Shown in pieces: positions 5,713-62,323 of a stretch of DNA of 64,000 nt. Both the position numbers and the translations under genes were made by a program. Position 1 is the first letter of the stretch; each line of letters starts with the position of its first letter. Source of the DNA: Candidatus Micrarchaeota archaeon CG1_02_47_40 (GTDB taxonomy: Archaea > Micrarchaeota > Micrarchaeia > Anstonellales > CG1-02-47-40); assembly GCA_001871475.1 (NCBI GenBank), contig MNVE01000009.1, positions 13,114 to 77,113 on the forward strand. The letters run 5' to 3'. A model generated the notes under the pieces. It saw only the letters and a program-made list of their open reading frames with translations, ran no database searches and was not told the DNA's origin.

Positions 5713-6497
5713 TAACACAAAACACGCTCGCGCAAATATCAAGGAAGGAAGGCATAGGCTGGACTGTGGTGGAGAAGGATTATTTCCTTACACTGCTCCT
5801 TGACGCGATTGCGAACACTCCCTTCCTCCATGAAAACCTCATATTCAAGGGAGGCACTGCATTAAGGAAAGCATACTTTGGGGATTACCGGTATTCGGAG
5901 GATTTGGATTTTACGCTGAAAAAGGAGCTCGGAAGCGAAGAGGTACGGAGTTCGTTTGAAACTGCGCTTGCCTACTTGGAAGAGAAATACAATGCAAGCC
6001 TTGCCATAAAGGATTTTGACAGCAAGAGGCATTTCACAGATGTGAAAGTGCAGTTTGTCGGCTTGAAGGGCAATAAAAACAAAATTGCCGTGGATTTGAT
6101 TGCCGATGAGATAATTGTGGATGAGCCTCTTGAAAGGAAGATTTTGAATATTTATTACAAAAAAGAGTTTTCGATGAAAGTTTATTCGCTTGAGGAGATT
6201 GTTGCTGAAAAATTGAGGAGTTTTATGCAGAGAACGAGGGTAAGGGATTATTATGACGTATGGTATCTTCTAAAGCACGCCAATCTTGATAGGAAAAGGA
6301 TTGCGGAAATTTTCTCAAAAAAGGTTGAATACAAAAAACTCCCATTTGAAGGAAAGGAGAGACTTTTGAATGAGGAGAAGCTCGCGCAGGCAGAGGCTTA
6401 TTATGATTCGCAGATAGGCAACCAGCTCAAGAATTTGCCGCCTTTCAAAAAAATAGCTGATGAGTTGAGGAAAGAAATAGAAACGCTTGAGCTTTGA
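5709..6497 (+). CDS. AbiEii-like nucleotidyltransferase toxin (DUF1814)
   Basis: KGGTALRKAYFGDYRYSEDLDFT signature of the AbiEii/AbiGii family. Confidence 0.7.
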   Translation: MITQNTLAQISRKEGIGWTVVEKDYFLTLLLDAIANTPFLHENLIFKGGTALRKAYFGDYRYSEDLDFTLKKELGSEEVRSSFETALAYLEEKYNASLAIKDFDSKRHFTDVKVQFVGLKGNKNKIAVDLIADEIIVDEPLERKILNIYYKKEFSMKVYSLEEIVAEKLRSFMQRTRVRDYYDVWYLLKHANLDRKRIAEIFSKKVEYKKLPFEGKERLLNEEKLAQAEAYYDSQIGNQLKNLPPFKKIADELRKEIETLEL

Positions 6498-10084: not shown

Positions 10085-10179
10085 CGTTATTCCACCAGTC
10101 TTTGACTGGCAGTTAGCATAGGTGGAATAACGGCTGTCAAAAACCGCCGGTCACTGACTGACGGCTTGCGGTTTTTGAC
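10085..10179. repeat. two tandem hairpins with perfect 12-bp stems (CGTTATTCCACC/GGTGGAATAACG and GTCAAAAACCGC/GCGGTTTTTGAC)
   Basis: Inverted repeats read directly in the 216-bp intergenic region between two minus-strand genes. Confidence 0.5.
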
Positions 10180-10267
10180 AAGAAAAGGAGGGGAGAAGTC
10201 CGCACCTTAAGGTGTTATGCCAAACGTAACGATTGTTAGTTTAAACATAACGATTTGCGTTATGATT

Positions 10268-20187: not shown

Positions 20188-20207
20188 ATATCACTAAAAA
20201 GTGATAT
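20188..20207. promoter_or_regulatory. palindrome ATATCAC-N6-GTGATAT (and near-palindrome TATCTCTAATTATAGATA at 20166-20190) upstream of TA-like module 3
   Basis: Read directly from the sequence. Lies immediately upstream of the likely ATG at 20210. Confidence 0.35.
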
Positions 20208-20209
20208 AT

Positions 20210-20875
20210 ATGAAACCGACAAGCAGAGAAACCTACAGAATTATTCGCGCAATGCTGCGGATGAAAAGATTTACCCAATATGAGATAAGCAAAAAGGAAA
20301 AAATTACTTTCAGCCTCGTAAACCGCACGGTCAATTGGTTTGTTCAGCATGGATATGCTGCAAAACGGGAAGGGGAATATGAAATAACTGCGCCTGCTGC
20401 AATATTCGGGCTTTTCCCCCTCTACCGGAGCCTCAAGCCATACGCTGTTTTTGATGTGAATGTGAAAAGGGAGCGGGCTTTGGGGTTGGTAAAGAAAAGG
20501 GGGGCGCTGTGCCTGACCAGCGCGCTCTCATATCACGGCGACTATTATCGCGACCCGGCAGTTCATGCTTATCTTGATGATGAAAAAATTATTGAAGAAT
20601 TAAAACGAATGCCAAAGGGTTACTGCCGCATTGAACTTTACAGGGAAGATTTGAATAAGGATGATTTTGAGCAGACGAAGTCTGCGAAATACGTGTCCGA
20701 TGGAGGAAACCGGCAAAGGTTTCCGACAGACTTGTCCGAAGGACAAGCAGAAGGACACGGTATTGAGAAAGCAGGTAAGTATATCGTAACGAACAAAATT
20801 AGAACGATAATTGATTTGTTTTGCGCCAACAAGGCGTATGCGGCTGAAGGATTGATTAAAACGGAGTGGGCTTGA
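20210..20875 (+). CDS. AbiEi-like wHTH regulator (module 3); C-terminal region overlaps a hairpin repeat element
   Basis: N-terminal wHTH and a SALSYHGDYY AbiEi-type motif. Nucleotides 20669-20700 and the palindromes at 20704-20747 match the repeat family seen at 61741-61773. Confidence 0.4.
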   Translation: MKPTSRETYRIIRAMLRMKRFTQYEISKKEKITFSLVNRTVNWFVQHGYAAKREGEYEITAPAAIFGLFPLYRSLKPYAVFDVNVKRERALGLVKKRGALCLTSALSYHGDYYRDPAVHAYLDDEKIIEELKRMPKGYCRIELYREDLNKDDFEQTKSAKYVSDGGNRQRFPTDLSEGQAEGHGIEKAGKYIVTNKIRTIIDLFCANKAYAAEGLIKTEWA

Positions 20876-21610
20876 ATGAAAGAGCTTTACGCAAAGGAGA
20901 TTACCGATTCTAGCCTGAAAGAATTGGAGGAAATGGCGCGCTGGTACAATGAAAAAATCGGGAATTATCCGATTATTGTCGGAGGCTGGGCGGTTTATTT
21001 TTACATCGGCGGGCTTGGCTCAAAGGATATTGATGTCGTGTTCCTTGGCGACAGGGCGAAGGATGCGACTTTGGCGGCGTATTTCCATTCCCATGGATAT
21101 GCTGAAAAGCGCAGGGATTTTTTTGATAAGGAATACGTGAAAAAAGTGAAGGCAGGAGATAGGGAAATTGAGATAATAATAGACGCGGTTTCTGCAAAGA
21201 GAACAATTCTTTTTGACGGAAAAGACGCAAGAATCCCCTGGAGCCTGGCTGCAAAGCATAATGTTGAACGGAAAATAGGCTCGGCGAGTGTTTGTTTGCC
21301 GACTAAAGAACTGCTCCTGACATACAAACTTGGCGCGGTCTTGGGAAGAAGCATTCTTCTAAAAACAAGCCCTGAATTTGATTATTACCGCTCAAAGCTT
21401 TGGAAGGATGTTTATGATGCTGCCAGCTTGGCGGGCTTGAAGATTGAGCAGAAGACTGTTTGGGGGTTTCTTGGGCAGACCGGGCTGAAAAAATACGCTA
21501 AAGAAATAATGCAGATTATAGAGGCAAACTTTGATGAAGAGGCGAAATCGCTTGCGGGAGAGGAAGGTTTTCTGAAGATTAGAGGGATGCTTGGGGAAGA
21601 TTGGAGGTAA
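20876..21610 (+). CDS. nucleotidyltransferase-fold protein (non-DUF1814 type), putative toxin partner
   Basis: GGWAVYFYIGGLGSKDIDVVF fits the G[GS]x(n)DhD minimal NTase motif. The gene starts 1 bp after the upstream stop. Confidence 0.45.
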   Translation: MKELYAKEITDSSLKELEEMARWYNEKIGNYPIIVGGWAVYFYIGGLGSKDIDVVFLGDRAKDATLAAYFHSHGYAEKRRDFFDKEYVKKVKAGDREIEIIIDAVSAKRTILFDGKDARIPWSLAAKHNVERKIGSASVCLPTKELLLTYKLGAVLGRSILLKTSPEFDYYRSKLWKDVYDAASLAGLKIEQKTVWGFLGQTGLKKYAKEIMQIIEANFDEEAKSLAGEEGFLKIRGMLGEDWR

Positions 21611-27515: not shown

Positions 27516-28298
27516 ATGGAAATCAATCTTGAGGTGTGCAGGACTATTGCGGTGCAGTATGGGCTGCCCCTGCAGTTTGTCGCAAAGGAGTTCTACGTGT
27601 TTGACGTGCTCGGGCAGATTGCTGAACTGACTGCGGGAAAGAAGGAGCTTGTTTTCAAGGGAGGAACCGCGCTCAACAAGATTTACCTTGGGAAAATGCA
27701 GCGCTTTTCAGAGGATTTGGATTTTGATTTGAGCGCGGAGAGGGAGATTGGGCTGACGGAGTATTGCAGGAAGCTTGCAAAGGGGATTGAAGGCTACAAA
27801 ATAGGTGAATTTCGAAAAGTGCGCGGCACGCTGCAGCTTTACTGCGGCTTTGAAAGCCTGCTTGGCGGAACTGATCATGTTAGGATTGACATTGCCGCAA
27901 AAAAAATAATCACGCAAAACCCTACCGCGCTCGGAACTGCCTCCTCTTCGTATGCAGGGCGCTCCGTCGCAGGAATTAATGTGTATTCCCTTGAGGATTT
28001 GTGCGCAAGGAAGCTTTGCGCCCTCTGCGTTAGGGGGGAGGGAAAGGATTTTTACGACGTGCATAATGCCCTGCCTTTATGCGGCAGGATGAAGGGGGCG
28101 ATTGAAAAAATGCTCTTAAGCGAAGGAAGCGGGCAAACTGCGGAGGAATTTTTGGAGAAGGCAACTGCAACGGTAAAAAAGGCGGATGCAAAAAAACTTC
28201 GCAATCTTGCAAACCCGTTCATACCTGCAGGCTGCCGTCCAAAGGATTGGCTGGAGCTGAAAAACGACCTTGCAATGAAACTGGAAATGCTGGGGTGA
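27516..28298 (+). CDS. AbiEii-like nucleotidyltransferase toxin (DUF1814)
   Basis: FKGGTALNKIYLGKMQRFSEDLDFD signature. Confidence 0.7.
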   Translation: MEINLEVCRTIAVQYGLPLQFVAKEFYVFDVLGQIAELTAGKKELVFKGGTALNKIYLGKMQRFSEDLDFDLSAEREIGLTEYCRKLAKGIEGYKIGEFRKVRGTLQLYCGFESLLGGTDHVRIDIAAKKIITQNPTALGTASSSYAGRSVAGINVYSLEDLCARKLCALCVRGEGKDFYDVHNALPLCGRMKGAIEKMLLSEGSGQTAEEFLEKATATVKKADAKKLRNLANPFIPAGCRPKDWLELKNDLAMKLEMLG

Positions 28299-33751: not shown

Positions 33752-33838
33752 ATTGGCGGGTAAGTTGGAGAGGACGATGAAGGGGAAGCGATTGAAATGG
33801 AAAAAAACATAATTGTCCGCGGAGCGCGCGAGCATAAC

Positions 33839-33907
33839 CAACAGCGAAGCTGTTGGGCCGTGTCCGCAAGGACACGTAGTGCGAGAGCGTGATGAATATG
33901 CAAAATA
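33839..33907. repeat. double-hairpin element (CAACAGC-GAAG-GCTGTTG and CGTGTCC-GCAA-GGACACG) flanked by imperfect ~30-bp direct repeats of the uvrA 5' end
   Basis: 33809-33838 (ataattgtccgcggagcgcgcgagcataac) resembles 33908-33936 (the uvrA start). The two hairpins lie between. Confidence 0.5.
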
Positions 33908-36708
33908 TAGTAATACGCGGAGCGCGCGAGCATAATCTGAAAAATATTGATGTTGATATTCCAAGGGATTCCCTTACGGTAATTACCGGCATTTCGGGAA
34001 GCGGCAAAAGCACTCTTGCATTTGACACTATTTACGCGGAAGGGCAGAGAAGGTACGTTGAATCCCTCTCCACCTACGCAAGGCAGTTTCTTGGGATAAT
34101 GGGAAAGCCGGATGTGGATTCTATAGAAGGGCTTTCCCCTGCCATTTCCATAGAACAAAAAGTAAGCGGGAAAAACCCCCGCTCTACTGTTGGCACGATG
34201 ACGGAAATTTACGATTACATGAGGCTCTTGTGGGCAAGAGTAGGAAAGCCCCACTGCCCAAAATGCGGTATTGAAATCGCAAGCCAGACCCCGCAGGCGA
34301 TTGTGGAGAATATAATGAAGGGAAATGAAGGGCAGAAGCTGGAGATACTCTCCCCGATTGTGCAGGGGAAAAAGGGGGAGTATGCGAAATTGCTTGAGAG
34401 ATTATCTGAAAGGGGATTTTCCCGCGCAAGGGTGGATGGGGAGGCGTGCGAGCTATCGCAAGCCCCGCCTCTGAAAAAACAGCAGAAGCATACGATAGAA
34501 GTGCTTGTGGACAGGTTGGCAATAATTGAAGCGGAAAAGAGCAGAATTTTTGAAGCGGTGCAGACTGCGCTGAAGGAAAGCGGGGGGGCGGTGATTGCAA
34601 AAATCGGAAAGGAGGAAAAACTGTTCTCGCAGAAAAATGCCTGCCTTAACTGCGGCATTTCTGTAGGCGAATTGGAGCCTCGGATGTTTTCATTCAATTC
34701 CCCTTATGGCGCATGCGAGGAGTGCCATGGCTTGGGAGTTAAGATGGAATTTGTGCCGGAGTTGGTAATTCCGGATATGGGAAAATGCATTGCGGATGGT
34801 GGGGTTGTTCCCTGGCAGAGCGCTGTTGGAAGCTATAGGGGGAGGATGCTGGAGGCGCTTGGCAAAAAGCTTGGCTTTGATATGTACACTCCGCTTAAGG
34901 ATATTGGAGAAGAGAACCTGCGCATAATACTCTACGGAACGGAAGAGAAAGTAAAATACAAGTTCAAATCAAGGAATGGAAATTCTTCTTTTGAGTATGA
35001 AGGCGGGTTTGAGGGGGTTGTGCCAAATTTAGAGAGATTGCATAAAGAAACGAAATCCGAATGGAGAAAGGAGGAGATTGCAAAATTCATACGCGAGAGC
35101 ACCTGCCCTAAATGCTGCGGGAAAAGATTGATGGAAAATGTGCTTGCGGTGAAAATACAGGAGAAATCAATAATGGATGTTTGCGAGCTTCCAATAGGAA
35201 AAGCAGGGGAATTTTTCAAGGGGCTGAAAACAGAGGGAAACGAAGCGATTATTGCTTCACCTGTGCTGAAAGAGATAAGGGAAAGGCTTGGATTTTTGGT
35301 GAATGTGGGCGTGCCTTATCTTACCCTCTCGCGCATTTCAGGCACGCTTTCAGGGGGGGAGATGCAGAGAATACGGCTTGCCACGCAAATCGGCTCAATG
35401 CTTACGGGTGTGGTGTATGTGCTTGACGAACCCAGTATAGGCCTGCACCAAAAGGACAACGGGATGCTGATAAAGACGCTGAAATCCCTGCGGGATTTGG
35501 GAAATACTCTTTTAGTGGTGGAGCATGACGAGGAGACGATGAGAAATGCGGATTATGTGGTGGATATGGGGCCCGGTGCAGGGGAAGCGGGAGGGAGAGT
35601 AGTGGTTGCAGGGAACGTGAAGGATATTGAGAAATGTGAAGAGTCGCTGACTGGAAAATACCTTTCAGGAAAGCTGAAAATACCGATTCCACAGAAGAGG
35701 AGAAGGAGCAGTAAGTTTCTGATTATTCGCGGGTGCGGGGAAAACAACCTGAAAGACATTGATGTTTCCTTTCCCCTTGGGACTTTCACCTGCGTTACCG
35801 GCGTTTCCGGAAGCGGAAAAAGCACGCTTGTGAATGAAACTCTGCACAAGGGGCTTGCGCAGAAAATATACGGCTCAAGGGAAAGGGCGGGAAAGTTTGA
35901 GAAATTTGAGGGGCTGGATTATATTGATAAGGCAGTTTGCATAGACCAGAATCCGATTGGAAGGACGCCAAGAAGCAATCCCGCAACTTATACTGGTGTT
36001 TTTACTCCCATACGCGAGTTGTTTGCAAAAACTCCTTCTGCGCGCATAAAGGGATATTCTGCCGGGAAATTCTCCTTTAATGTTGAGGGGGGAAGATGCG
36101 AGAAATGCGAAGGGGCAGGAATGCAGAGAATAGAAATGAATTTCCTGCCTGATATATTCGTGCCCTGTGAGGAATGCCAGGGGAAACGGTATAATTCGGA
36201 GGCGCTTTCCATAACTTACAAGGAGAAGAATATTTCTGATGTTTTGAGTATGAGCGTGGATGAAGCTGCCGCGTTTTTTGAGAACATTCCGCAGATTAGG
36301 GAGAAGCTCAAAACTCTGCGGGATGTGGGGCTTGGGTATGTGAAGCTTGGGCAGAGCGCAACCACGCTTTCCGGAGGGGAGGCGCAGAGGGTGAAGCTCT
36401 CAAGCGAGCTTTCAAAGAGGGGGACGGGAAAAACAATTTACATTCTTGATGAGCCGACTGTGGGACTGCACTTTGCGGATGTTGCAAAACTGCTTGATGT
36501 GCTTGTCAGATTGGTGGAGAAGGAGAATACGGTGATTGTTATAGAGCATAATCTGGATGTGATTAAGTGCGCGGATTATGTTATTGATTTGGGTCCGGAA
36601 GGAGGGGAGGGAGGCGGGAGAGTAGTTGCGCTTGGGACTCCGGAAGAGGTTGCGCAAAACAATAAAAGCTGTACAGGAGAGTATCTGAAGGGAGTATTGA
36701 AGTCATGA
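33889..36708 (+). CDS. uvrA: excinuclease ABC subunit A
   Basis: Two ABC ATPase modules (GISGSGKST, GVSGSGKST), zinc-finger Cys clusters, 939 aa. Confidence 0.95.
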   Translation: MMNMQNIVIRGAREHNLKNIDVDIPRDSLTVITGISGSGKSTLAFDTIYAEGQRRYVESLSTYARQFLGIMGKPDVDSIEGLSPAISIEQKVSGKNPRSTVGTMTEIYDYMRLLWARVGKPHCPKCGIEIASQTPQAIVENIMKGNEGQKLEILSPIVQGKKGEYAKLLERLSERGFSRARVDGEACELSQAPPLKKQQKHTIEVLVDRLAIIEAEKSRIFEAVQTALKESGGAVIAKIGKEEKLFSQKNACLNCGISVGELEPRMFSFNSPYGACEECHGLGVKMEFVPELVIPDMGKCIADGGVVPWQSAVGSYRGRMLEALGKKLGFDMYTPLKDIGEENLRIILYGTEEKVKYKFKSRNGNSSFEYEGGFEGVVPNLERLHKETKSEWRKEEIAKFIRESTCPKCCGKRLMENVLAVKIQEKSIMDVCELPIGKAGEFFKGLKTEGNEAIIASPVLKEIRERLGFLVNVGVPYLTLSRISGTLSGGEMQRIRLATQIGSMLTGVVYVLDEPSIGLHQKDNGMLIKTLKSLRDLGNTLLVVEHDEETMRNADYVVDMGPGAGEAGGRVVVAGNVKDIEKCEESLTGKYLSGKLKIPIPQKRRRSSKFLIIRGCGENNLKDIDVSFPLGTFTCVTGVSGSGKSTLVNETLHKGLAQKIYGSRERAGKFEKFEGLDYIDKAVCIDQNPIGRTPRSNPATYTGVFTPIRELFAKTPSARIKGYSAGKFSFNVEGGRCEKCEGAGMQRIEMNFLPDIFVPCEECQGKRYNSEALSITYKEKNISDVLSMSVDEAAAFFENIPQIREKLKTLRDVGLGYVKLGQSATTLSGGEAQRVKLSSELSKRGTGKTIYILDEPTVGLHFADVAKLLDVLVRLVEKENTVIVIEHNLDVIKCADYVIDLGPEGGEGGGRVVALGTPEEVAQNNKSCTGEYLKGVLKS

Positions 36709-39929: not shown

Positions 39930-41513
39930 ATGCGGCACTCTGCAAAAGACATTCCTTCCTCCCCTGGCGTCTATCTGATGAAAGGGAGCAGAGGGGAAAT
40001 AATCTACATAGGAAAGGCAAAGAACCTCCGCGAGAGGGTGGGAAGCTACTTTTCAGGTGAACAAGAGGGAAAGACTGCAAGGATGGTTGGAGAGATTAAA
40101 GATATTGATTTCATAGTCACGGATAATGAAACGGAAGCGCTCATCCTGGAAGCAAGCCTGATAAGGCAGAATAAGCCCAAGTATAATGTTGATTTGAGGG
40201 ATTCGGAGAGATTCACTTACATTATTTTCAGCAATGAAAGATTTGCAAGAATTTTTCTTGCGCGCAATCCAACAGCTTCAAGATGCGCGCGTGCAGGCAG
40301 TAAAGTTTTCGGTCCTTTCGCAAAAGGAAGCGCGCGCATACTCGTTGTGGACACCCTGCGCAAAATATTTGGGCTTCGCACCTGTAGAAATATGCCAAGG
40401 CGGGCATGTTTGCAATACCATATGGGAAACTGCACCGCGCCATGCGAGGGAAGAGTAGGGGAGAGAAAATATGCGGAGAAGGTAAAGGAAGTTGAGAAAG
40501 TGCTTTCCGGAAAAGGAGGGGGGTATGAGGGATTGCTGGAAAAGCTGAAGGGAGAGATGGAGTATGAAGCAGGAAAAAGGAATTTTGAAAGGGCTGCGAA
40601 ACTGCGGGACAGCCTGCGTGTTCTTGAAGGATTGCAGGAGAGGCAGAAAATAGAAAGGGTTGATGGAAAAGATGAGGATTATTTGTATTATGCCCGGAAT
40701 GCCAAAGGCGCCGTTTCATTGCAGATGTTCCGCGTGATTGGGGGAGTGATAAAGGAAAGAGAGAAGCACTCCTTTGAGGCGGAAAAAGGAAAGGAATTGG
40801 AGGAGTTTATGCTTGCGCATTATGCCGAAGGAAACATTCCGCAGAAGATTTACGTGCAGGAGGAATTTGGGGGAAGGAAGGCACTTGAAGGGTATCTTGG
40901 AGGGATTGCAGGCAGCAGAGTCGCAATAACTGTTCCGCAAAAAGGGGATAAGAAAAAACTGCTGGAATTGCTCGCAAAGAACATGGAAAGTGAGATACCT
41001 GTTGCACTCGTAAAACTCCGGCGCGCACTTTCCCTGCGTGAAATTCCGAGGGTTATAGAGTGCTTTGACGTTTCAAACCTTGGGAAGGAAGGAATTGTAG
41101 GAGCGATGGTGCGCTTTGTTGATGGGAAGCCGGACAAGGGGAATTACAGGAAATTTAAGATAAAGGAAGTGAAGGGGCAGGATGATTTTGCCTCTATGAA
41201 GGAAATAGTGTTCAGGAGGTATTTGAGATTGGGCAGGGAGAATGCAGAAATGCCGAATTTGGTGCTCGTGGATGGGGGGGTTGGACAGCTAAACAGCGCA
41301 ATGAAGGCGCTTTCAGAGCTGGGAGTGGATTTGGAGTGTATTTCACTTGCAAAGGAAGAGGAAAAAGTCTACTCGCCGAAATTTTCACAGCCCATCGCCC
41401 TGCCGAAAACGGATGAGGGGCTCAAAATACTCATGCACGCGCGGGATGAGGCGCACAGGTTTGCGATTTCATATCAAAGGAAGGTAAGGGGCAGAAGTTC
41501 GGGAATTGCTTAA
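39930..41513 (+). CDS. uvrC: excinuclease ABC subunit C
   Basis: N-terminal GIY-YIG (PGVYLMKG...IYIGKAKNLRERV), UVR domain, and the C-terminal endonuclease V/HhH region. Confidence 0.9.
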   Translation: MRHSAKDIPSSPGVYLMKGSRGEIIYIGKAKNLRERVGSYFSGEQEGKTARMVGEIKDIDFIVTDNETEALILEASLIRQNKPKYNVDLRDSERFTYIIFSNERFARIFLARNPTASRCARAGSKVFGPFAKGSARILVVDTLRKIFGLRTCRNMPRRACLQYHMGNCTAPCEGRVGERKYAEKVKEVEKVLSGKGGGYEGLLEKLKGEMEYEAGKRNFERAAKLRDSLRVLEGLQERQKIERVDGKDEDYLYYARNAKGAVSLQMFRVIGGVIKEREKHSFEAEKGKELEEFMLAHYAEGNIPQKIYVQEEFGGRKALEGYLGGIAGSRVAITVPQKGDKKKLLELLAKNMESEIPVALVKLRRALSLREIPRVIECFDVSNLGKEGIVGAMVRFVDGKPDKGNYRKFKIKEVKGQDDFASMKEIVFRRYLRLGRENAEMPNLVLVDGGVGQLNSAMKALSELGVDLECISLAKEEEKVYSPKFSQPIALPKTDEGLKILMHARDEAHRFAISYQRKVRGRSSGIA

Positions 41514-41739
41514 AAGATTTTCTCCTTCTAATTCCTCGCATGAGCGACCAGAGTTATTTTCAGGAGCTAGCCAAAGCCGGAAGCGGAAAGCCGCAAAGCA
41601 AAGTCGGGAGATTGGAAGGGATGGGAATGAGCGAACGGGGAGTTTATGAAGAGCTTGTGAAGTTCGGCATTCCAAAATTGGATGCGGGGATAATAACAGA
41701 CTGCCTGAACATGGAGAAGGCGTGCATGTGGCAGAATGA

Positions 41740-42125
41740 TGAGGATGGTTTGCAACGAGGGCGTTCTGCCAGCTCGTTGCAAAATTTTGAAAAAGCGCAG
41801 GGTAACCGTACAAGGGGCGCTTTTTCAAATGTTTCGCTGGAAGCGGTTGGGAAAGTGAATGAGTTTGTGAAGGGGAAGGGGCTTGGCATGAAGGTTGAGG
41901 CATCGGCTGGAAGGTATGGGAAGGTAGTTTGGGAAGTGAGGAAACCGCAAGGGTTGACACCGAAGGTGTCAAATTTTGACGCAGAAGCGTCAAATGTTTC
42001 CGAACGATTTGAAAGTTCCGAAGAACTTTCAAAATTTTGAAACGCAAAGCGTTTCAAACGTCTTGACGCGAAACCGACAGCTTTGCTGTCGGAACTTGCG
42101 CAGAGCGCAAGTAGAGCGTCAAGCG
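41740..42125. repeat. hairpin-dense non-coding region (at least 8 consecutive perfect palindromes, many with GAAG/AAA loops); candidate structured ncRNA or cluster of mini-repeat elements
   Basis: Palindromes TTGCAACGAG...CTCGTTGCAA, TTGACACC-GAAG-GTGTCAA, GTCAAATTTTGAC, GACGC-AGAA-GCGTC, TTGAAAGTTC-CGAAG-AACTTTCAA, TTTCAAAATTTTGAAA, TTGAAACGC-AAA-GCGTTTCAA, CCGACAGC-TTTG-CTGTCGG and CTTGCGC-AGA-GCGCAAG, all read directly. Confidence 0.55.
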
Positions 42126-42226
42126 AAGTGAAAAAGGAGTAGGAGATGTTACCCCGCACTGAAAAGTATGCGCGTTGCTTTTTCTTTTATTGCTTCTGCC
42201 GCTTCCCTGCCGTTTGCGTCTAATCT

Positions 42227-42281
42227 ATTGAAATCTCACTTTCAATTTTTGCCTAATTATTGAAAGCAGACTTTCAATAAT
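42227..42281. promoter_or_regulatory. two related palindromes (ATTGAAA-TCTCAC-TTTCAAT; ATTATTGAAAG-CAGA-CTTTCAATAAT) upstream of the AAA_14 ATPase gene; putative operator pair
   Basis: Read directly from the sequence, 20-75 bp upstream of ATG 42302. Confidence 0.35.
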
Positions 42282-42301
42282 GGAAAAGTATTTAAATACT
42301 T

Positions 42302-43645
42302 ATGCCTAAAATACCCTTTATGGAAATAGAAGGCATTGCAAAGCAGAACCCTTGGTGGGGGAACCCCAAAGGATGGGAAGGGCAGGACAGGCACTTTAGG
42401 CTCTTGGAAAATTATAAGTATGTGTATGAGAGGGAGGGCTATCTTCCGGCAAAGGAGGGGGTGGTTGTCCTCTACGGTCCGAGGCAGATCGGAAAGACTA
42501 CCTGGATAAAGAGAAGAATAGCAAACCTTCTGAAAACCTGTAAATCAACGGAGATATTCTACCTGAATGCCGAAACAGTCAGGGACAGGTTTGAGCTGTA
42601 TGAGGCGGTAAAGACTGCCGGTGGGCTATATTCCCCAAAATACATTTTCATTGACGAGATAAACGCGATAGCTGACTGGGAGAGGGGGATAAAGGCGCTT
42701 GTGGATGAAGGGGCTTTTGAAGGGAAATGCGCGCTTTTGAGCGGCTCAAGCTCCCTTAACATAATGAAAAAATCAGAGCGGCTTCCCGGAAGGCTGGCAA
42801 AGGGAAAGAACAAATACAGGTTTTACCCGCTCTCTTTCGCGGAATCGGCAAGGCTTTACGGGATGGAGTTTAAGGATGCAAAATCCGCGCTTGCCGGGCT
42901 GGATAAGCTGAACCCCCTCCTTTACAGATATTTCATACACGGCGGATTTATCCGGGCGCAGAATGCTCTTGAAGAAAAAGGAAGGCTGGACGAGGAGCTG
43001 TTTTCGGTGTATTCTGCGTGGATTGACGGGGAGCTTGCAAAAGTGAAAAAATCACCTGAAATCACGACTGGTATAATGGACGGAGCTGCCAATGCACTGA
43101 CGAATGAAACTACTTGGAGTGCAATCAGCAGAAGCGCAAGCCACCCGACAATAGCGGAGTATGTTGAGACTCTTAAGGACATGTTCGTGTTCGGATACAT
43201 AGAGAAATCAAGACGGGCAAAGGAGGGGATGCCCAAAAACAAGAAGATTTACTTTTCTGACCCTTTTCTTTACTGGCTTGCGCTTTATCGGGGCAGAAAG
43301 ATTGACGGCGCGGGAGTGGAGGATTTGGGTTTGGAAACCTGCGGAAAGCTTGCGGAGCTGTGCGTTTATTCCTGCCTGGTTGATTTTCTTGATGGGCAGA
43401 AGCAGGAGAGCGACTTTGAGCCGCGAAGGTATATTCATTTTGAGAGGGGGGAGGAAGGAGAGATTGATTTTTGCGTTAGACATGAGGGGAAGACTTATTT
43501 CCTTGAGTCAAAATTCGGGAAGGTGGAAAAGGAAAAGAAGGGAGTTATTTACATAACCAAAAATCAGTTCGGCAGGAATAAGATACCTTTGGCGGTTTTT
43601 CTTCTGCATCCTCTTGGAAGTTTGGAGCTGTGCAGGGCAGTTTAG
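42302..43645 (+). CDS. AAA_14/DUF4143-family ATPase
   Basis: Walker A LYGPRQIGKTT and Walker B IFIDEIN. The C-terminal region is DUF4143-like. Confidence 0.65.
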   Translation: MPKIPFMEIEGIAKQNPWWGNPKGWEGQDRHFRLLENYKYVYEREGYLPAKEGVVVLYGPRQIGKTTWIKRRIANLLKTCKSTEIFYLNAETVRDRFELYEAVKTAGGLYSPKYIFIDEINAIADWERGIKALVDEGAFEGKCALLSGSSSLNIMKKSERLPGRLAKGKNKYRFYPLSFAESARLYGMEFKDAKSALAGLDKLNPLLYRYFIHGGFIRAQNALEEKGRLDEELFSVYSAWIDGELAKVKKSPEITTGIMDGAANALTNETTWSAISRSASHPTIAEYVETLKDMFVFGYIEKSRRAKEGMPKNKKIYFSDPFLYWLALYRGRKIDGAGVEDLGLETCGKLAELCVYSCLVDFLDGQKQESDFEPRRYIHFERGEEGEIDFCVRHEGKTYFLESKFGKVEKEKKGVIYITKNQFGRNKIPLAVFLLHPLGSLELCRAV

Positions 43646-44190: not shown

Positions 44191-44994
44191 ATGAAGAGAA
44201 TTTGCATTCCTGTATTTGACTGCAAAATGCTCAAAGAGGCGGCAGAAAAAACTGATTTGGTAGAGGTTAGGCTGGATAGGTTTGGGAAAAGGGAGAGGGA
44301 AAAACTCGCGGAAATAGCAAAAAAAATTAAAGCAAAACTCATCCTCACGATAAGGAAAAAAAGCGAGGGCGGGATTGAGCGGACGGGAGTCCGCGAAAGA
44401 TTTGACTCCCAAGAGTCAAACTGCCCGAAGCGGAGCAAGGGCGGGATTGAGCGGACGGGAGTCCGCGAAAGATTTGACTCCCAAGAGTCAAACTGCCCGA
44501 AGCGGAGCAAGGGCAGGAAGTTTAAAGGGAATGAACGCCAGAGGCTGGCGCTTTTTTTGGAAATGCTTAAAGCAGCAAGATTCGCATACGCCGATATCGA
44601 ACTTTCAAGCGGCAGGAAATTCATTGAAAAGGTAAGAAAAAAAGCAAAAGAGGCAGGCGCAAAGCTCATTCTCTCAAAGCACTATTTTGCCGGCACTCCA
44701 AGCAGGAAGGAGTTTTTGCAAACATATGCAAAAATGAAGAAGCTTGGCGCGGATATTTGTAAAATAGTAGGAACTGCAAGAAGTGAAAGAGACTGCGGGA
44801 ATGCAATGGAAGCGCTGAAAAAGGCAAAAAAAGACACTGCCATCTTCTTCTGCATGGGAAAGAAAGGAAAAAATACAAGAAGCGAGTGCTTAAAATTCGG
44901 CGCTCCTTTCACTTATGCCTCTTTAAAGAAAGGAAAGGAGAGTGCGAAAGGACAGTATGACTTTGGGAAGATGACAAAGCTACTCGAAGGATAA
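44191..44994 (+). CDS. aroD: 3-dehydroquinate dehydratase type I, carrying an in-frame 2x24-aa tandem insertion after the conserved EGG motif
   Basis: ICIPV...VEVRLD, LILTIRKKSEGG, ADIELS, KLILSKHYF and CKIVGTA blocks. The insert is GIERTGVRERFDSQESNCPKRSKG repeated twice. Confidence 0.7.
   Translation: MKRICIPVFDCKMLKEAAEKTDLVEVRLDRFGKREREKLAEIAKKIKAKLILTIRKKSEGGIERTGVRERFDSQESNCPKRSKGGIERTGVRERFDSQESNCPKRSKGRKFKGNERQRLALFLEMLKAARFAYADIELSSGRKFIEKVRKKAKEAGAKLILSKHYFAGTPSRKEFLQTYAKMKKLGADICKIVGTARSERDCGNAMEALKKAKKDTAIFFCMGKKGKNTRSECLKFGAPFTYASLKKGKESAKGQYDFGKMTKLLEG
44367..44510. repeat. perfect 72-bp tandem duplication (2 copies) inside aroD, internally palindromic (GAGTC...GACTC-CCAA-GAGTC)
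   Basis: The identical 72-bp unit gggcgggattgagcggacgggagtccgcgaaagatttgactcccaagagtcaaactgcccgaagcggagcaa occurs twice consecutively. Confidence 0.8.
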
Positions 44995-49126: not shown

Positions 49127-49654
49127 TTACGTTTCTTCTGCCATCTTTGCCCCGACGAGAAATGATGCCTCTTCCCCTGGAAGCGCCGCCACCTCATCCT
49201 TCTTGAAGGGGCCGTATGTTTTCAGCTGGCTTCCCTTGTAAGCGGGAATATCTTTTAGGAATCTAACCTTTTTAACGCTTAGGGGCGTTTTCTCCTCCTG
49301 TTTCTGCGCCTGCATTGCAAAATCCAGCCCGTCATCCGTTTTTTTGAGGCACTCGCGCACCTCATCATACAGCTTGTGCTCCTCTTCAGTCATACCTGAA
49401 GAATCGTGCTCCGCCCCTTTGAGCGCACGAAAAAGTATTTTCTTCTGCCGGAGAGAGATGATGTCCTTTACCGTTTTTTGCACGTTGTCAAATTCTCGCA
49501 GTTCGCTTATAGAGGAATCCGTGCTGATGGATGATTTCCTCTCGCGCAAAAACTCAAACACCTGTGAGAAGTATTCCTTTGGCAGGGAGAAGAGGGTTGC
49601 GCTCTCCCTTTCTTTTCGCTGAAGTTCCCTTAAATCCGAGTAAGTAAGTGGCAT
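49127..49654 (-). CDS. GINS-subunit-like (Gins15/51-like) protein
   Basis: The N-terminal LTYSDLRELQRKERESATLFSLPKEYFSQVFEFL resembles the GINS A-domain pattern. Replication-gene neighbourhood (priS/priL nearby). Confidence 0.3.
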   Translation of the reverse strand: MPLTYSDLRELQRKERESATLFSLPKEYFSQVFEFLRERKSSISTDSSISELREFDNVQKTVKDIISLRQKKILFRALKGAEHDSSGMTEEEHKLYDEVRECLKKTDDGLDFAMQAQKQEEKTPLSVKKVRFLKDIPAYKGSQLKTYGPFKKDEVAALPGEEASFLVGAKMAEET

Positions 49655-49857
49655 AAAAAAACCTCTGGTTTTTTAGACTTGCCCTTTGGGCAAGCTGATA
49701 AAATTTGTCCCTCATTTATTTTGAGGATGGGAGTTTAAGAGGGTTTTGCCGAGAACTTGCAGGGGAAATGCAGACCAAACGCCATATATTTCATGTAAAA
49801 AAGTCGTTTTTGTAGAAAACGATATGTTTAAAAAGTCGTTCTGTCAAAAAACGATTT

Positions 49858-55719: not shown

Positions 55720-55787
55720 ATGAAGAGGAGAGTTAATTTTTATCTGCCTGCTTCGTTTTTATTTGTTGAATAATACAAGTTTAGTAT

Positions 55788-55933
55788 GCAGGGGTGCCAG
55801 AGTTTGGTCAATTGGGCAGGACTTAAGAGCGCACTGGCGCGATGAAATCCTGTGGACTAGCTCCTTCGCAGGTTCTCGCAAATAATGCCAATATCGGGGC
55901 ATTGCTGGCGGCCTAAAAATCCTGCCCCCTGCA
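55788..55933 (+). tRNA. tRNA-Leu(UAA) with two introns (about 19 nt at the canonical 37/38 site and about 41 nt in the T-loop); mature length about 86 nt
   Basis: Manual fold: acceptor GCAGGGG/CCCCUGC; D-stem CCA/UGG; anticodon stem CAGGA/UCCUG; loop CUUAAGA (anticodon UAA); long variable arm GGA-CUAGC-UCC; T-stem GCAGG/CCUGC; T-loop UUC[intron]AAAU; discriminator A followed by TTTT. Confidence 0.7.
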
Positions 55934-55973
55934 TTTTGCTTGCAAAATGCGGGGCCTTGTCCGCAAGGACAAG
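55931..55973 (+). terminator. tRNA trailer: oligo-T plus two hairpins (GCATTTTGC-TT-GCAAAATGC and CTTGTCC-GCAA-GGACAAG, a GNRA tetraloop)
   Basis: Palindromes read directly from the sequence. Archaeal tRNA transcription terminates at T-runs. Confidence 0.35.
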
Positions 55974-56071
55974 TGTCCCCTGCATTCATTTATTTTTCTT
56001 CTTTTCCTTCCTCAAAACCAAAGGTTTATATGCTTTGTATTACGAAACTATCGTTTGGAGATAGTATTGTT

Positions 56072-56878: not shown

Positions 56879-57628
56879 ATGAACGCCGAAGAATTGAACA
56901 GGAAGGCGGTATCCGCCGGCATTCCGCGTGCAATAATGGAAAAGGATTACGTGCTTTCGGTTGTGCTCTTCCATATTTCAAAATCCGTCCTTGCTGAAAG
57001 GATGCTTTTCAAGGGAGGCACTGCACTCAAGAAGGTTTATTTTCCCGATGCAAGATTTTCCGAAGATTTGGATTTTGCTGCACGGGCATCTGATGAGAGG
57101 ACGATAATGGATGAACTGAAGTCGCTTTTTGAAGACAGAGAACTCAAAGGCATCAGATTCGCATTCCTGGAAAAAGAAAGGTCGCACGCGGGCTTGAGGG
57201 CCGCCCTGAAATTTTCCTTCATTCTCGGGCATACGCAGAGAATCCGCTTTGATTTCAGTTTCCGCGAAAACGTCGCGTCAAAGCCGGAGAAAAGGGCGAT
57301 TGTGGATGAATATAATCTTGGCAATGCGGAATTGCTTGTGATTCCGCTTGAGGAGCTGTTTGCGGAAAAAATTAACGCGCTTTTTGGAAGAATTGCCGTC
57401 AGAGATTTGTATGATGTCTGGTTTCTGTTCAAACGCGGCATAAAGGCGGATAAGCTGATGATAAAAAGGAAGTTTGCCTATTACAATGAAGAATACGAAC
57501 CCTCAAAACTGAAAGGAAGGATAAACTTGTTCAGAAAAGACTGGAAGAGAGATTTGGCTCAATTCATGAATGACGTTCCGGATTTTGATGGAATTGCGGA
57601 TGAAACTGTGAAATTTCTTGAAGAATAA
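56879..57628 (+). CDS. AbiEii-like nucleotidyltransferase toxin (DUF1814)
   Basis: FKGGTALKKVYFPDARFSEDLDFA signature. It starts 1 bp after the upstream stop. Confidence 0.7.
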   Translation: MNAEELNRKAVSAGIPRAIMEKDYVLSVVLFHISKSVLAERMLFKGGTALKKVYFPDARFSEDLDFAARASDERTIMDELKSLFEDRELKGIRFAFLEKERSHAGLRAALKFSFILGHTQRIRFDFSFRENVASKPEKRAIVDEYNLGNAELLVIPLEELFAEKINALFGRIAVRDLYDVWFLFKRGIKADKLMIKRKFAYYNEEYEPSKLKGRINLFRKDWKRDLAQFMNDVPDFDGIADETVKFLEE

Positions 57629-61640: not shown

Positions 61641-61644
61641 TGAT

Positions 61645-61800
61645 TTGCAACGAGGGCTCTCGGCGGGCAAGCCCGCCGTATCCGCCAGCTCGTTGCAAAA
61701 TTTTGAAAATCGCTCCTCCCTGCGCGAAGCGCGGGGTATTGAGCAGACGAAACCTGCGAAATACGTATCCGAAGGATACGGTATCCGCGTAAAGCGATTT
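61645..61800. repeat. hairpin-rich repeat element (module A TTGCAACGAG..CTCGTTGCAAAATTTTGAAAA; module B GAGCAGACGAA..CTGCGAAATACGT.TCCGA.GGA) related to 41750-41798 and 20669-20700
   Basis: Shared modules identified by eye. Nested palindromes CGGCGGG-CAAG-CCCGCCG, CGCG-AAG-CGCG, GTATCC-GAAG-GATAC. Confidence 0.55.
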
Positions 61801-61852
61801 TCAAATGAGCTAATTCTTCCCTTCGCTCTTCCCGCAAAAATAAGCGCGCTTC

Positions 61853-62323
61853 TCACCTCATCGGCGTTATTATCACTATATCCGCAGTATTTCTCAATGC
61901 AACGGAAAAGCCCGGCTCCGCGCCTATTACAATGGTTTCCTTTCCAAGCTCTTTTGCTTTTATCAAAACAGGACGGAAATCATTATCCCTTGTCATTAAG
62001 GCAATCTTGTTGATTGCCGGATTGAAAACCTGCTGCATCGCTTCAACCGCCATTGTCACATCCACGTCTCCTGTTGTGATTATCGGCTCAAATCCCTGGT
62101 TGGTCATTGCCTCTATCAGCTTGTCGGAAGCATACTGGTCAAGGAATACCTTTGCCACTTTTATCTGCCCGTGCTTCTCCACTTCCCTTTTCACGGCAAT
62201 CAAATCCGGCTTCATCTCCCGTCTTATGGTGTTGGGGCCGTCTATGAGAAGAGCTATGTTCCCCTCTACCTTCTTCTGCTTTATCATTTTCTTGATGGAT
62301 TCAATCAAATTCACGTTTGGCAT
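61853..62323 (-). CDS. NYN/LabA-like (PIN-related) domain protein
   Basis: [10 protein letters not shown] start typical of NYN domains, with conserved acidic residues. Confidence 0.55.

What the first reader, a model, noticed from the sequence alone, without database searches (positions are those of the whole stretch)
41740..42125. Hairpin-dense non-coding region between uvrC and the AAA_14 ATPase: candidate structured RNA or mini-repeat cluster
At least eight consecutive perfect palindromes within about 380 bp, several with CGAAG/GAAG or AAA loops. The ORF track's 166-aa protein here is probably spurious. Module A (TTGCAACGAG..CTCGTTGCAAAATTTTGAAAA) recurs at 61645-61715. This density of stable hairpins suggests an abundant structured ncRNA, a processing or termination array, or a nest of miniature inverted-repeat elements.
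Basis: seen in the sequence. Interest (0 to 1): 0.6.

Follow-up and report, generated by a model that had tools for sequence, protein, structure and literature searches.

The report
Palindromic mini-insertions inside a real gene
The hairpin-dense stretch is not an RNA gene: it is a small, conserved protein-coding gene of a Micrarchaeota (DPANN) archaeon that has taken up short, repeated, hairpin-forming DNA modules, which also sit in frame inside housekeeping genes of the same genome, as the palindromic elements of Rickettsia do.

Summary
The hairpins are real and far beyond chance: nine perfect palindromes lie in 41749-42125, with fold z-scores of -7 and -10. The region is coding, though. ORF 41540-42040 belongs to a conserved family of 85-118 aa proteins and lies just after uvrC, as it does in the nearest relative.

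Against nine homologues it carries an 84-nt in-frame insertion, the double hairpin A-B. A 192-nt hairpin cluster (D-H) at its 3' end is bounded by a GAAGTGA direct repeat. The original C-terminus, EVKKE*, survives in frame downstream of that cluster. Deleting both insertions restores a 108-aa protein that aligns without gaps to the 112-aa homologue.

The modules are dispersed repeats:
- A-B recurs at 61644-61805 and, antisense and in frame, inside trpE on another contig.
- A second module type sits in frame in aroD, within ORF 20201, and nested in a loop of A-B copy 2.

All stems are Watson-Crick with compensatory changes and no wobble pairs. Nothing in Rfam matches, and no transposase gene lies nearby.

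Best reading: selfish palindromic mini-insertion modules, analogous to RPE and REP elements, with an unknown way of spreading. Its "nest of miniature repeats" alternative is broadly right.

The parts
41510..41517 (+). TATA-like box (TTAAAAGA) about 30 nt upstream of the ATG at 41540. This spacing suggests a leaderless small gene.
   Evidence: Read from the sequence. The relative L048 has TTATAAATA at the same distance from its ATG. This is inference only.
41540..42040 (+). Real protein-coding gene, 166 aa as it stands. It belongs to a conserved family of 85-118 aa proteins of unknown function found in Micrarchaeota and relatives.
   Evidence: Ten homologues, E from 2.6e-29 to 6.8e-4. Invariant residues G43, L47, D48, C55, W64, N66, W131. 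The orthologue lies directly after uvrC in L048. AlphaFold pLDDT is above 90 for residues 31-66 and 100-134.
41750..41833 (+). Insertion 1: the 84-nt (28-codon) in-frame double-hairpin module A-B. Hairpin A is 41749-41783 and hairpin B is 41786-41829. The boundaries are ambiguous by 1-3 nt, and ATG(G)TT / ATGTT flank it.
   Evidence: The 28 aa are absent from all nine homologues. The stems are perfect. pLDDT is about 50 and the segment is coil. Four of six frames are free of stops.
41834..41939 (+). Conserved C-terminal half of the gene (…AVGKVNEF…GKVVWEV).
   Evidence: Alignment A1 and a gapless alignment after in-silico excision.
41940..42131 (+). Insertion 2: the 192-nt (64-codon) hairpin cluster, bounded by the direct repeat GAAGTGA at 41933-39 and 42125-31. 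An outer stem GGAAAC/GTTTCC (41940-45 / 41996-42001) encloses D (41954-72) and E (41975-94). F (42008-33), G (42036-58) and H (42059-42125) follow. H's outer stem is the same as E's and holds two nested hairpins.
   Evidence: The GGAAACC/GGTTTCC stem recurs at 20705-20724.
42038..42040 (+). Present stop codon (TGA). It lies in the AAAATTTTGAAA junction between hairpins F and G, so hairpins D-F encode a foreign 27-aa C-terminal tail.
   Evidence: The tail has pLDDT 50-66 and is coil.
42125..42142 (+). Relic of the original gene end: GAAGTGAAAAAGGAGTAG = EVKKE*. It is in the same frame as the ORF and is now untranslated.
   Evidence: Homologues end in WEVKK…. The reconstructed 108-aa protein aligns without gaps to P0123 at 60% identity, E 3e-46.
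42179..42188 (+). T5-C-T4 tract. It is a probable archaeal oligo-T terminator for uvrC and the small gene.
   Evidence: Read from the sequence. This is an inference from general knowledge of archaeal termination.
42226..42298 (+). Promoter region of the AAA_14 ATPase gene. It has two ATTGAAA-N-TTTCAAT operator-like palindromes (42226-46 and 42256-81) and a TATA box TTTAAATA (42291-98). The likely start is the ATG at 42320 (441 aa) rather than 42302. This region is not part of the repeat family.
   Evidence: Gene calls of 441 aa in most assemblies.
61644..61805 (+). Second copy of module A-B (A2 61644-61699, B2 61702-61805), directly after the stop of a small wHTH gene. Both loops are expanded by nested hairpins. 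B2's loop contains a 45-nt C-type module (about 61736-61780) flanked by GGTAT.
   Evidence: The B stem differs from B1 at five positions, all compensated.
44366..44514 (+). Two tandem 72-nt C-type modules (hairpins GCGGACgggaGTCCGC and TTTGACTCccaaGAGTCAAA) inserted in frame in aroD and flanked by AGGGC. Together they form a 48-aa insert between SEGG and KFKGNER.
20665..20775 (+). C-type module with two further nested hairpins, lying inside ORF 20201-20875 without a stop and flanked by T[T/A]TTGAG. The insertion could not be delimited against homologues.

Best explanation
The region is the 3' two-thirds of a genuine small protein gene of a Micrarchaeota archaeon from Crystal Geyser groundwater. 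Short, hairpin-forming, dispersed DNA repeat modules have colonised that gene.

**What is shown**
- An 84-nt double hairpin (A-B) is inserted in frame in a surface loop.
- A 192-nt pile of hairpins (D-H) is inserted seven codons before the original stop. It gives the protein a 27-aa foreign tail and leaves the old gene end as an untranslated relic.
- The modules belong to at least two repeat families, A-B and C, plus recurring single hairpins. They are scattered through this genome in intergenic DNA, next to a tRNA, and in frame inside housekeeping genes (trpE, aroD).
- They nest inside each other's loops.

**What is inferred**
- They are selfish or neutral DNA-level palindromes, analogous to Rickettsia RPEs and to REP/BIME clusters. 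I think they propagate through a hairpin-forming, probably single-stranded, DNA intermediate. The agent would be either an enzyme acting in trans that is not encoded nearby, or template-switch/microhomology repair.
- Copies survive inside genes only when their length is a multiple of three and the frame in use has no stop. In that case they are translated as disordered loops.
- Any role of hairpins G and H as a 3' mRNA stabiliser would be secondary.
For: - **The gene is real.**
- **In-silico excision works.** Removing both insertions gives a 108-aa protein collinear with the 112-aa orthologue, with no gaps.
- **Empty sites exist.** The nearest relative, L048, has the gene with neither insertion. 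L061 has no such gene at all.
- **The modules are dispersed.** A-B occurs at 41749, at 61644, and within trpE on L029, where it is antisense, 117 nt long and stop-free. C modules occur in aroD, in ORF 20201 and in the loop of B2.
- **Presence/absence differences.** The L029 copy of B lacks the 45-nt C module. aroD has one unit in one assembly and two in others.
- **The stems point to DNA-level palindromes.** About 200 bp of stems across the hairpins I tabulated are all Watson-Crick, with no G-T pairs. Compensatory double changes occur: five pairs between B1 and B2; CGTATCC versus CGTGTCC; GCAGAC versus GCGGAC.
- **Open frames are enriched.** Modules are stop-free in 3-5 of 6 frames.
- **Lengths are multiples of three.** Every coding insertion is (84, 117, 72, 192 nt), and so is every length difference between copies (21, 15, 45 nt).
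- **The inserts look disordered.** They model as low-confidence coil.
- **No known RNA family matches.**
- **Hairpin excess is lineage-specific.** Counts are 46 against 10.7 expected here, 14 against 3.7 in L048 and 11 against 4.8 in L061.
Against: - **Few copies seen.** Only three A-B copies and four C units (three sites) were found in about 87 kb of this organism. 16 kb of flanking DNA holds none. A genome-wide copy number is unknown.
- **No mobilising gene found.** No transposase, RAYT or reverse transcriptase appears among the called genes of the window.
- **Flanking repeats vary in length.** They are about 3-6 nt (A-B, imperfect), 5, 5, 7, 7, 8 and 20 nt long, whereas a single transposase usually gives a fixed length.
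- **One hairpin was built on the spot.** The hairpin beside the tRNA uses the tRNA's own 3' end as one arm. That points to in-situ palindrome formation rather than insertion.
- **No population variation at this locus.** All eight assemblies of the locus are identical.
- **The aroD difference may be an artefact.** The one-versus-two unit difference could be an assembly collapse.
- **No expression data.**
Confidence: 0.7

Rival explanations
1. The palindromes are made in place by DNA repair or replication errors, such as snap-back or template-switch synthesis and microhomology-mediated end joining at breaks. They are not mobile elements. Hairpin loops are fragile, so new palindromes arise inside old ones. 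The few identical copies would then reflect templated copying or gene conversion between loci.
For: - Flanking direct repeats vary in length, from about 3-6 nt up to 20 nt.
- Every stem is perfect.
- The hairpin after the tRNA, CCCC(T)GCATTTTG-cttg-CAAAATGCGGGG, uses the tRNA 3' end as one arm.
- Many stems share the foot TTTGA…TCAAA but differ above it.
- No transposase gene is nearby.
Against: - Sequences of 26 to more than 100 nt are identical at three unlinked loci, and the C core is shared by three loci. That requires copying between sites.
- The stems CTTGCCC/GGGCAAG occur both here and in a relative whose UvrC is only 56% identical.
Confidence: 0.2
2. The cluster is a structured non-coding RNA, or a cis-acting RNA array for termination, processing or 3' stabilisation, in an intergenic spacer.
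For: - Predicted folds are very stable on both strands.
- Loops are purine-rich and GNRA-like on the sense strand.
- Stems show compensatory changes.
- Hairpins G and H lie after the present stop and before a T-tract, where a stabilising role is conceivable.
Against: - Positions 41540-42040 are conserved coding sequence.
- A-B sits inside the frame and is absent from the orthologue.
- The same module is antisense inside trpE.
- There are no G-U pairs in about 200 bp of stems, which points to DNA symmetry rather than RNA selection.
- No Rfam family matches. The best hit scores 22.8 bits against a gathering score of 39.8.
- Archaeal termination does not need hairpins (general knowledge).
Confidence: 0.05
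3. The modules inside genes are small archaeal introns. They would be cut out of the mRNA by the broad-specificity splicing endonuclease known from Micrarchaeota, so the proteins would be unaffected.
For: - A tRNA in this window carries two introns, one of them in the T-loop.
- From my own knowledge, ARMAN/Micrarchaeota endonucleases accept relaxed bulge-helix-bulge substrates, and tRNA introns have moved between sites in some archaea.
Against: - Every coding insertion has a length that is a multiple of three and is stop-free in the host frame (84, 117, 72 and 72 nt). Spliced sequence would be under no such constraint.
- No helix joins the two flanks of A-B, so no bulge-helix-bulge motif can form.
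- The 192-nt cluster does supply the stop codon now in use.
Confidence: 0.04

Closest known systems
Rickettsia palindromic elements (RPEs; Ogata et al. 2000, as summarised in the MITE review PMC10969869)
   Same: - Both are short palindromic repeats, dispersed in a small genome.
- Both insert in frame into unrelated housekeeping genes without destroying them.
- Both are open in several reading frames.
- Both are also found in intergenic DNA.
   Different: - The host here is an archaeon (DPANN), not a bacterium.
- No sequence relationship to RPEs has been shown.
- These units are smaller (17-26 nt single hairpins, 45-120 nt composites), modular and nested.
- The same module is translated in different frames and orientations, so there is no conserved peptide.
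- Far fewer copies have been seen so far.
REP / BIME / REPIN elements of bacteria (PMC3116915; PMC3733652; archaeal REP-like palindromes in PMC12306157)
   Same: - Both are 20-40 nt hairpins clustered head to tail at gene 3' ends, as D-H are.
- Both show families of stems with compensatory variation.
- In both, clusters form by insertion into or next to existing copies.
- A single-stranded hairpin intermediate is suspected in both.
   Different: - REPs are by definition extragenic, whereas these also lie inside reading frames.
- These have no GTAG or CGTC head.
- No RAYT gene was found in the DNA available.
- The stems here are perfect rather than imperfect.
MITEs and modular repeats such as pneumococcal BOX elements
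   Same: - Both are non-autonomous, multi-copy and strongly folded.
- Both have a modular make-up (A, B and C modules in varying numbers).
- Both can create in-frame fusions with host ORFs (PMC10969869).
   Different: - These have no clear terminal inverted repeats beyond the shared hairpin foot.
- Their flanking duplications vary in length.
- No parent insertion sequence has been identified.
Small dispersed repeats (SDRs) of cyanobacteria (my own recollection of Elhai et al. 2008; cited in PMC3116915 only as a repeat class of unknown origin)
   Same: Both are very small hairpin repeats that insert within one another and into other elements, with no known transposase.
   Different: The resemblance rests on my memory of that work. 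I did not test it here. The hosts are from a different domain of life.

Membership tests
Rickettsia palindromic elements (RPE-like) | Palindromic repeat present at several genomic sites | tested here: met
   A-B occurs at three loci and C at three sites (four units, counting the aroD tandem pair).
Rickettsia palindromic elements (RPE-like) | Inserted in frame in protein-coding genes that remain intact | tested here: met
   The small gene carries 84 nt. aroD carries 2 x 72 nt. trpE carries 117 nt and keeps full Chorismate_bind and Anth_synt_I_N matches.
Rickettsia palindromic elements (RPE-like) | Each family encodes one conserved peptide, always read in the same frame | tested here: not met
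   A-B is read as LQRGRSASSLQNFEK… in the small gene. In trpE it is read on the opposite strand as …RFSKFCNELA….
Rickettsia palindromic elements (RPE-like) | Sequence homology to RPE families 1-10 | not tested
   No RPE library was available. Homology is implausible given the archaeal host.
MITE | Terminal inverted repeats | tested here: inconclusive
   The ends of A-B are TTTGCAA… and …TTTTCAAA. They are alike only because both hairpins share the same foot.
MITE | Target-site duplication of fixed length | tested here: not met
   Flanking direct repeats are about 3-6 nt (A-B, imperfect), 5, 5, 7, 7, 8 and 20 nt long.
MITE | A related autonomous IS or transposase in the genome | not testable with these tools
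   None appears among the Pfam-annotated genes of about 87 kb. The rest of the genome could not be fetched.
REP / BIME / REPIN | Extragenic location | tested here: not met
   A, B, D, E and F lie inside the reading frame of 41540-42040. Other copies lie inside trpE and aroD.
REP / BIME / REPIN | Conserved GTAG or CGTC tetranucleotide at the hairpin head | tested here: not met
   The hairpin feet are TTTGA/TCAAA, C[GT]T[GA]TCC and similar. No GTAG or CGTC tag is present.
REP / BIME / REPIN | Association with a RAYT (IS200-like Y1 transposase) | not testable with these tools
   None is present in the window.
IS200/IS605-derived palindrome-associated elements (PATE) | A hairpin at each end, insertion 3' of a fixed short target, and no duplication | tested here: inconclusive
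   A and B could serve as the left and right end hairpins. All three copies are preceded by ATG(A/G) and end in …CAAATG. Three copies are too few to judge, and no TnpA was found.
Known structured RNA family (Rfam 15) | Match at or above the family gathering score | tested here: not met
   There are no hits at gathering thresholds in the window. The best sub-threshold hit is AaHKsRNA22, at 22.8 bits against a gathering score of 39.8.
Archaeal bulge-helix-bulge intron | Bulge-helix-bulge motif formed across the two boundaries | tested here: not met
   The minimum-energy and centroid folds show A and B as independent hairpins with unpaired flanks. The flanking sequences are not complementary.

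The most novel reading that the evidence does not exclude
Micrarchaeota, and perhaps other DPANN archaea, harbour a previously undescribed class of very small, nested, hairpin-forming insertion modules. They invade housekeeping genes in frame, as an archaeal counterpart of Rickettsia's RPEs. They leave flanking duplications of variable length, which would imply a non-canonical way of spreading, for example through a single-stranded DNA hairpin, an RNA intermediate or a repair pathway. They would also be an unrecognised source of lineage-specific protein insertions in reduced archaeal genomes.
Probability: 0.35. Interest if true: 0.7.

Novelty: new variant of a known kind. Interest (0 to 1): 0.55.

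Why it matters
- **Annotation.** A hairpin-dense "spacer" is really a conserved gene with two insertions, so predicting an RNA gene here would be an error.
- **Genome evolution.** In-frame colonisation of housekeeping genes by palindromic repeats is a textbook oddity of Rickettsia. Finding the same behaviour in an ultrasmall archaeon with a compact genome suggests it may be a general outcome of repeat spread in reduced genomes. It could explain some of the unexplained insertions in DPANN proteins.
- **Mechanism.** Perfect stems, nesting in loops and variable flanking duplications together offer a tractable case for asking how very small palindromes move or arise without an obvious transposase.
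- **Assembly quality.** These repeats break or mis-join metagenome assemblies. One chimeric contig was seen here.

Tried and rejected
- **Genome-contig scan** for the 20-mer CTCGTTGCAAAATTTTGAAA.
- **Metagenome-contig scan** for a 19-mer. It returned 36 loci, of which 34 are chance hits. Only L024 (the same site as locus 2) and L029 (trpE) are real. Known JGI contigs carrying locus 1 were not returned, so absence from this collection means little.
- **Protein search with the minus-strand ORF 41644-42159**, meant to catch translated modules elsewhere. It found nothing.
- **Viral contig scans** for the A-B junction and the C core. They gave no hits and four unrelated hits respectively.
- **Walking 7.2 kb left and 9 kb right of the window.** No further modules turned up.
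- **Delimiting the insertion in ORF 20201** against in-window paralogues. There was no usable similarity.
- **Fold search of the small protein against the PDB.** No significant match, so its function remains unknown.
- **RNase P, SRP or another divergent known RNA.** I considered this and rejected it on the sub-threshold Rfam scan.
- **Replication origin or operator array.** Rejected, because the palindromes lie inside a conserved reading frame.
- **Contig L004**, which seemed to be a strain variant. It is a join of locus 1 and locus 2 across the shared 26 nt, most likely an assembly chimera.

Full report
**Source.** The window comes from a Candidatus Micrarchaeota archaeon (DPANN) from Crystal Geyser groundwater. 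Exact copies of its proteins are found in GCA_002762955.1, GCA_002499375.1 and a 173-kb ENA contig. The genome is compact: most gaps between genes are under 100 nt.

**Checking the observation.** The palindromes are present as described:

| Hairpin | Coordinates | Stem | Loop |
|---|---|---|---|
| A | 41749-41783 | 11 bp | 13 nt |
| B | 41786-41829 | 13 bp | 18 nt |
| D | 41954-41972 | 8 bp | GAA |
| E | 41975-41994 | 8 bp | AGAA |
| F | 42008-42033 | 11 bp | CGAA |
| G | 42036-42058 | 10 bp | AAA |
| H | 42059-42125 | outer 8 bp (42062-69 / 42116-23) | holds two inner 8-bp hairpins, 42074-92 and 42094-112 |

- Folding 41740-42135 gives z = -7.0 on the + strand and -9.8 on the - strand. No shuffle out of 100 is as stable.
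- The window holds 46 perfect short hairpins, against a mean of 10.7 and a maximum of 17 in shuffles.
- Module A with its junction recurs at 61644-61709 as a 26-nt exact match.
- No Rfam family matches, either at gathering thresholds or convincingly below them.

**The ORF is real.** The first word-based homologue search found only the organism itself. An exhaustive HMMER search of 1.84 billion representatives found ten relatives of 85-118 aa, with E down to 2.6e-29.
- The best relative (P0123, 112 aa, 61% identity) is the gene directly downstream of uvrC in the nearest relative, L048. That genome's UvrC is 56% identical, and the gene order uvrB-uvrA-VIT1-uvrC-small gene-hydrolase is the same.
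- The alignment has invariant residues G43, L47, D48, C55, W64, N66 and W131.
- It shows a 28-residue block in the window protein that all nine homologues lack. That block is exactly hairpins A and B (41750-41833, 84 nt).
- An AlphaFold model built on this alignment has pLDDT above 90 for residues 31-66 and 100-134. The insert and the last 27 residues score about 50-66 and model as coil.

**The 3' cluster is also an insertion.**
- Just after hairpin H, in the same reading frame, the sequence GAAGTGAAAAAGGAGTAG encodes EVKKE*, which is the family's usual C-terminus.
- The heptamer GAAGTGA occurs at 41933-39 and again at 42125-31. The two copies are 192 nt (64 codons) apart.
- Deleting the 84-nt and 192-nt segments yields a 108-aa protein. 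It aligns to P0123 over 107 residues without a single gap, at 60% identity and E 3e-46.
- The present stop, TGA at 42038-40, lies in the junction between F and G. Hairpins D-F are therefore translated as a foreign tail, while G, H and the relic gene end are untranslated.
- Within the cluster, an outer stem GGAAAC/GTTTCC encloses D and E. The same stem forms a simple hairpin at 20705-24.
- H has the same stem as E, with two hairpins nested in its loop.

**The modules are dispersed repeats that also sit in other genes.**
- *A-B, copy 2.* It lies at 61644-61805, directly after the stop of a small winged-helix gene, and both of its loops are enlarged.
- *A-B, copy 3.* It was found by the metagenome scan. 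It lies on the antisense strand inside trpE on contig L029, is 117 nt long and has no stop in the host frame. The host keeps full matches to both anthranilate synthase domains. It is about 60 residues longer than solved TrpE structures between the two flanking conserved blocks.
- *C inside A-B.* Copy 2 differs from copy 3 by a 45-nt module, C, in the loop of B, flanked by GGTAT.
- *C elsewhere.* C-type modules share the core ATTGAGC-RGAC-loop-GTCY-GCGAAA followed by a variable hairpin. One lies within ORF 20201-20875, with two more nested hairpins. Two tandem 72-nt units lie in aroD. There they form a 48-aa insert between SEGG and KFKGNER relative to solved dehydroquinases, flanked by AGGGC.
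- *aroD copy number.* One assembly has a single aroD unit. An assembly collapse cannot be excluded.
- *Recurring single hairpins.* Small hairpins with the same or compensated stems recur (CGTGTCC, CGTATCC, CTTGTCC, CCGACAGC/CCAACAGC, CTTGCCC). They lie before uvrA, after a tRNA, in front of the gene at 49127-49654, and in relative L048.

**Why DNA-level palindromes rather than a functional RNA.**
- About 200 bp of stems across the hairpins I tabulated are purely Watson-Crick. There is not one G-T pair, so both strands fold equally well.
- Stems differ between copies by paired changes: five pairs between B1 and B2, plus single pairs in both C hairpins.
- Most loops are closed by a C-G pair around GAA, GCAA or a similar sequence. 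From my own knowledge, C-GAA-G is a notably stable DNA mini-hairpin. That is a lead, not a test.
- The same module is used in both orientations relative to transcription.
- Modules are stop-free in 3-5 of 6 frames.
- Every coding insertion (84, 117, 72, 192 nt) is a multiple of three, and so is every length difference between copies (21, 15, 45 nt). That fits survival under translation and argues against splicing.
- No helix joins the flanks of A-B, so there is no bulge-helix-bulge motif.

**How they spread is not settled.**
- No transposase-like gene appears among the Pfam-annotated genes of the window and its flanks.
- Flanking direct repeats range from about 3-6 nt (imperfect, A-B) to 20 nt, which is unusual for one transposase.
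- The hairpin after the tRNA uses the tRNA's own 3' end as one arm. That looks like snap-back synthesis in place.
- Against that, identical sequences of 26 to more than 100 nt at unlinked loci require copying between sites.
- All three A-B copies are preceded by ATG(A/G) and end in CAAATG. This would suit an IS200/IS605-type single-strand mechanism, but three copies are too few to judge.
- Hairpin excess is strong here and in L048, and weak in the more distant L061. The expansion is therefore lineage-specific.

**Comparison with known systems.**
- In behaviour the closest analogue is the Rickettsia palindromic element (PMC10969869).
- In form, the 3' cluster resembles a REP/BIME cluster (PMC3116915, PMC3733652). 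REP-like palindromes have been reported in archaea generally (PMC12306157).
- The defining features of RPE (one conserved peptide per family), MITE (fixed-length duplication, parent IS) and REP (extragenic location, GTAG/CGTC head) were each tested where possible and not met. I therefore describe this as working like those elements, not as a member of any of them.
- A library search found no paper linking RPE-type elements with DPANN archaea.

**Verdict.**
- The "spurious ORF" and "structured ncRNA" readings are refuted.
- The "nest of miniature repeats" reading is broadly right.
- I rate interest at 0.55. This is a new variant of a known kind, with a plausible route to something more novel if a genome-wide census and expression data bear it out.

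Noticed in passing
window 55787-55928 (tRNA) and 55921-55979 (3' flank): A class II tRNA gene was missed by ARAGORN and Rfam because it has two introns: about 19 nt in the anticodon loop and about 41 nt in the T-loop. After I removed the T-loop intron by hand, ARAGORN calls tRNA-Ser(TGA); Leu(TAA) is my alternative reading. Two hairpins follow the gene directly, and the whole 43-nt insert is flanked by the 8-nt direct repeat CCCCTGCA. One hairpin arm is the tRNA 3' end itself.
   Followed up: partly
window 33797-33935: Upstream of uvrA lies a decoy start, MEKNIIVRGAREHN. It copies the true N-terminus (MQNIVIRGAREHN…) and is followed by two hairpins (33838-56 and 33859-76) and a stop. A 20-nt direct repeat, CGCGGAGCGCGCGAGCATAA, flanks the insert at 33818-37 and 33916-35. 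It looks like a hairpin insertion into codon 14 of uvrA that was rescued by duplication of the gene's 5' end.
   Followed up: partly
window 44366-44514; L007 3577-4308: aroD carries two tandem 72-nt units in most assemblies but only one in ERZ27293412; the sequences are otherwise identical. This is either a real copy-number polymorphism or a collapse in a k141 assembly.
   Followed up: partly
L004 (ena:ERZ27293400 k141_1330731), 1-1316: This contig joins window 41031-41793 to 61681-62262 across the 26 nt shared by the two A-B copies. It is most likely an assembly chimera. It produced a spurious 185-aa 'homologue' (P0002).
   Followed up: yes
window 10085-10180: An intergenic double hairpin has the same architecture as A-B: 12-bp and 13-bp stems, loops of 24 and 20 nt, and a 2-nt linker. 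Its second stem, TGTCAAAAACCGC, resembles B (TTTGAAAAAGCGC) with three compensated changes. It may be a diverged family member.
   Followed up: no
window 49656-49694: Two hairpins (AAAAAACCtctGGTTTTTT and CTTGCCCtttGGGCAAG) lie immediately upstream of the ATG of the minus-strand gene 49127-49654, between it and the nearest TATA-like sequence. The CTTGCCC/GGGCAAG stem also occurs in relative L048 at 68-84.
   Followed up: no
L048 60-150 and 14217-14262: The nearest relative (UvrC 56% identical) has its own intergenic cluster of C-GAA-G-type hairpins. It also has an adjacent pair of 9-bp hairpins inside a PIN-domain gene, which may be another in-frame insertion.
   Followed up: no
window 42226-42320: Upstream of the AAA_14 ATPase gene are two operator-like palindromes (ATTGAAA-N6-TTTCAAT, and ATTATTGAAAG-N4-CTTTCAATAAT). 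A TATA box at 42291-98 lies only 4 nt before the ATG at 42302. The real, leaderless start is therefore probably the ATG at 42320 (441 aa). This ATPase gene is absent from the same position in both relatives.
   Followed up: partly
window 5709-6497, 27516-28298, 56879-57628 (and possibly 20876-21610): The window holds several AbiEii-type nucleotidyltransferase genes, each preceded by a small putative antitoxin or regulator gene, plus two DNA methylases and an MvaI/BcnI-type restriction enzyme. That is a high density of defence and toxin-antitoxin genes for so small a genome.
   Followed up: no
modules at 41749-41829, 61644-61805 and L029 1832-1948: All length differences between copies are multiples of three, even for the copy lying outside a gene. 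A1 versus A2 is 21 nt, B1 versus the L029 B is 15 nt, and the L029 B versus B2 is 45 nt. There are too few independent cases to be sure (chance is about 1 in 27). It hints that variants arise or are filtered inside reading frames.
   Followed up: partly
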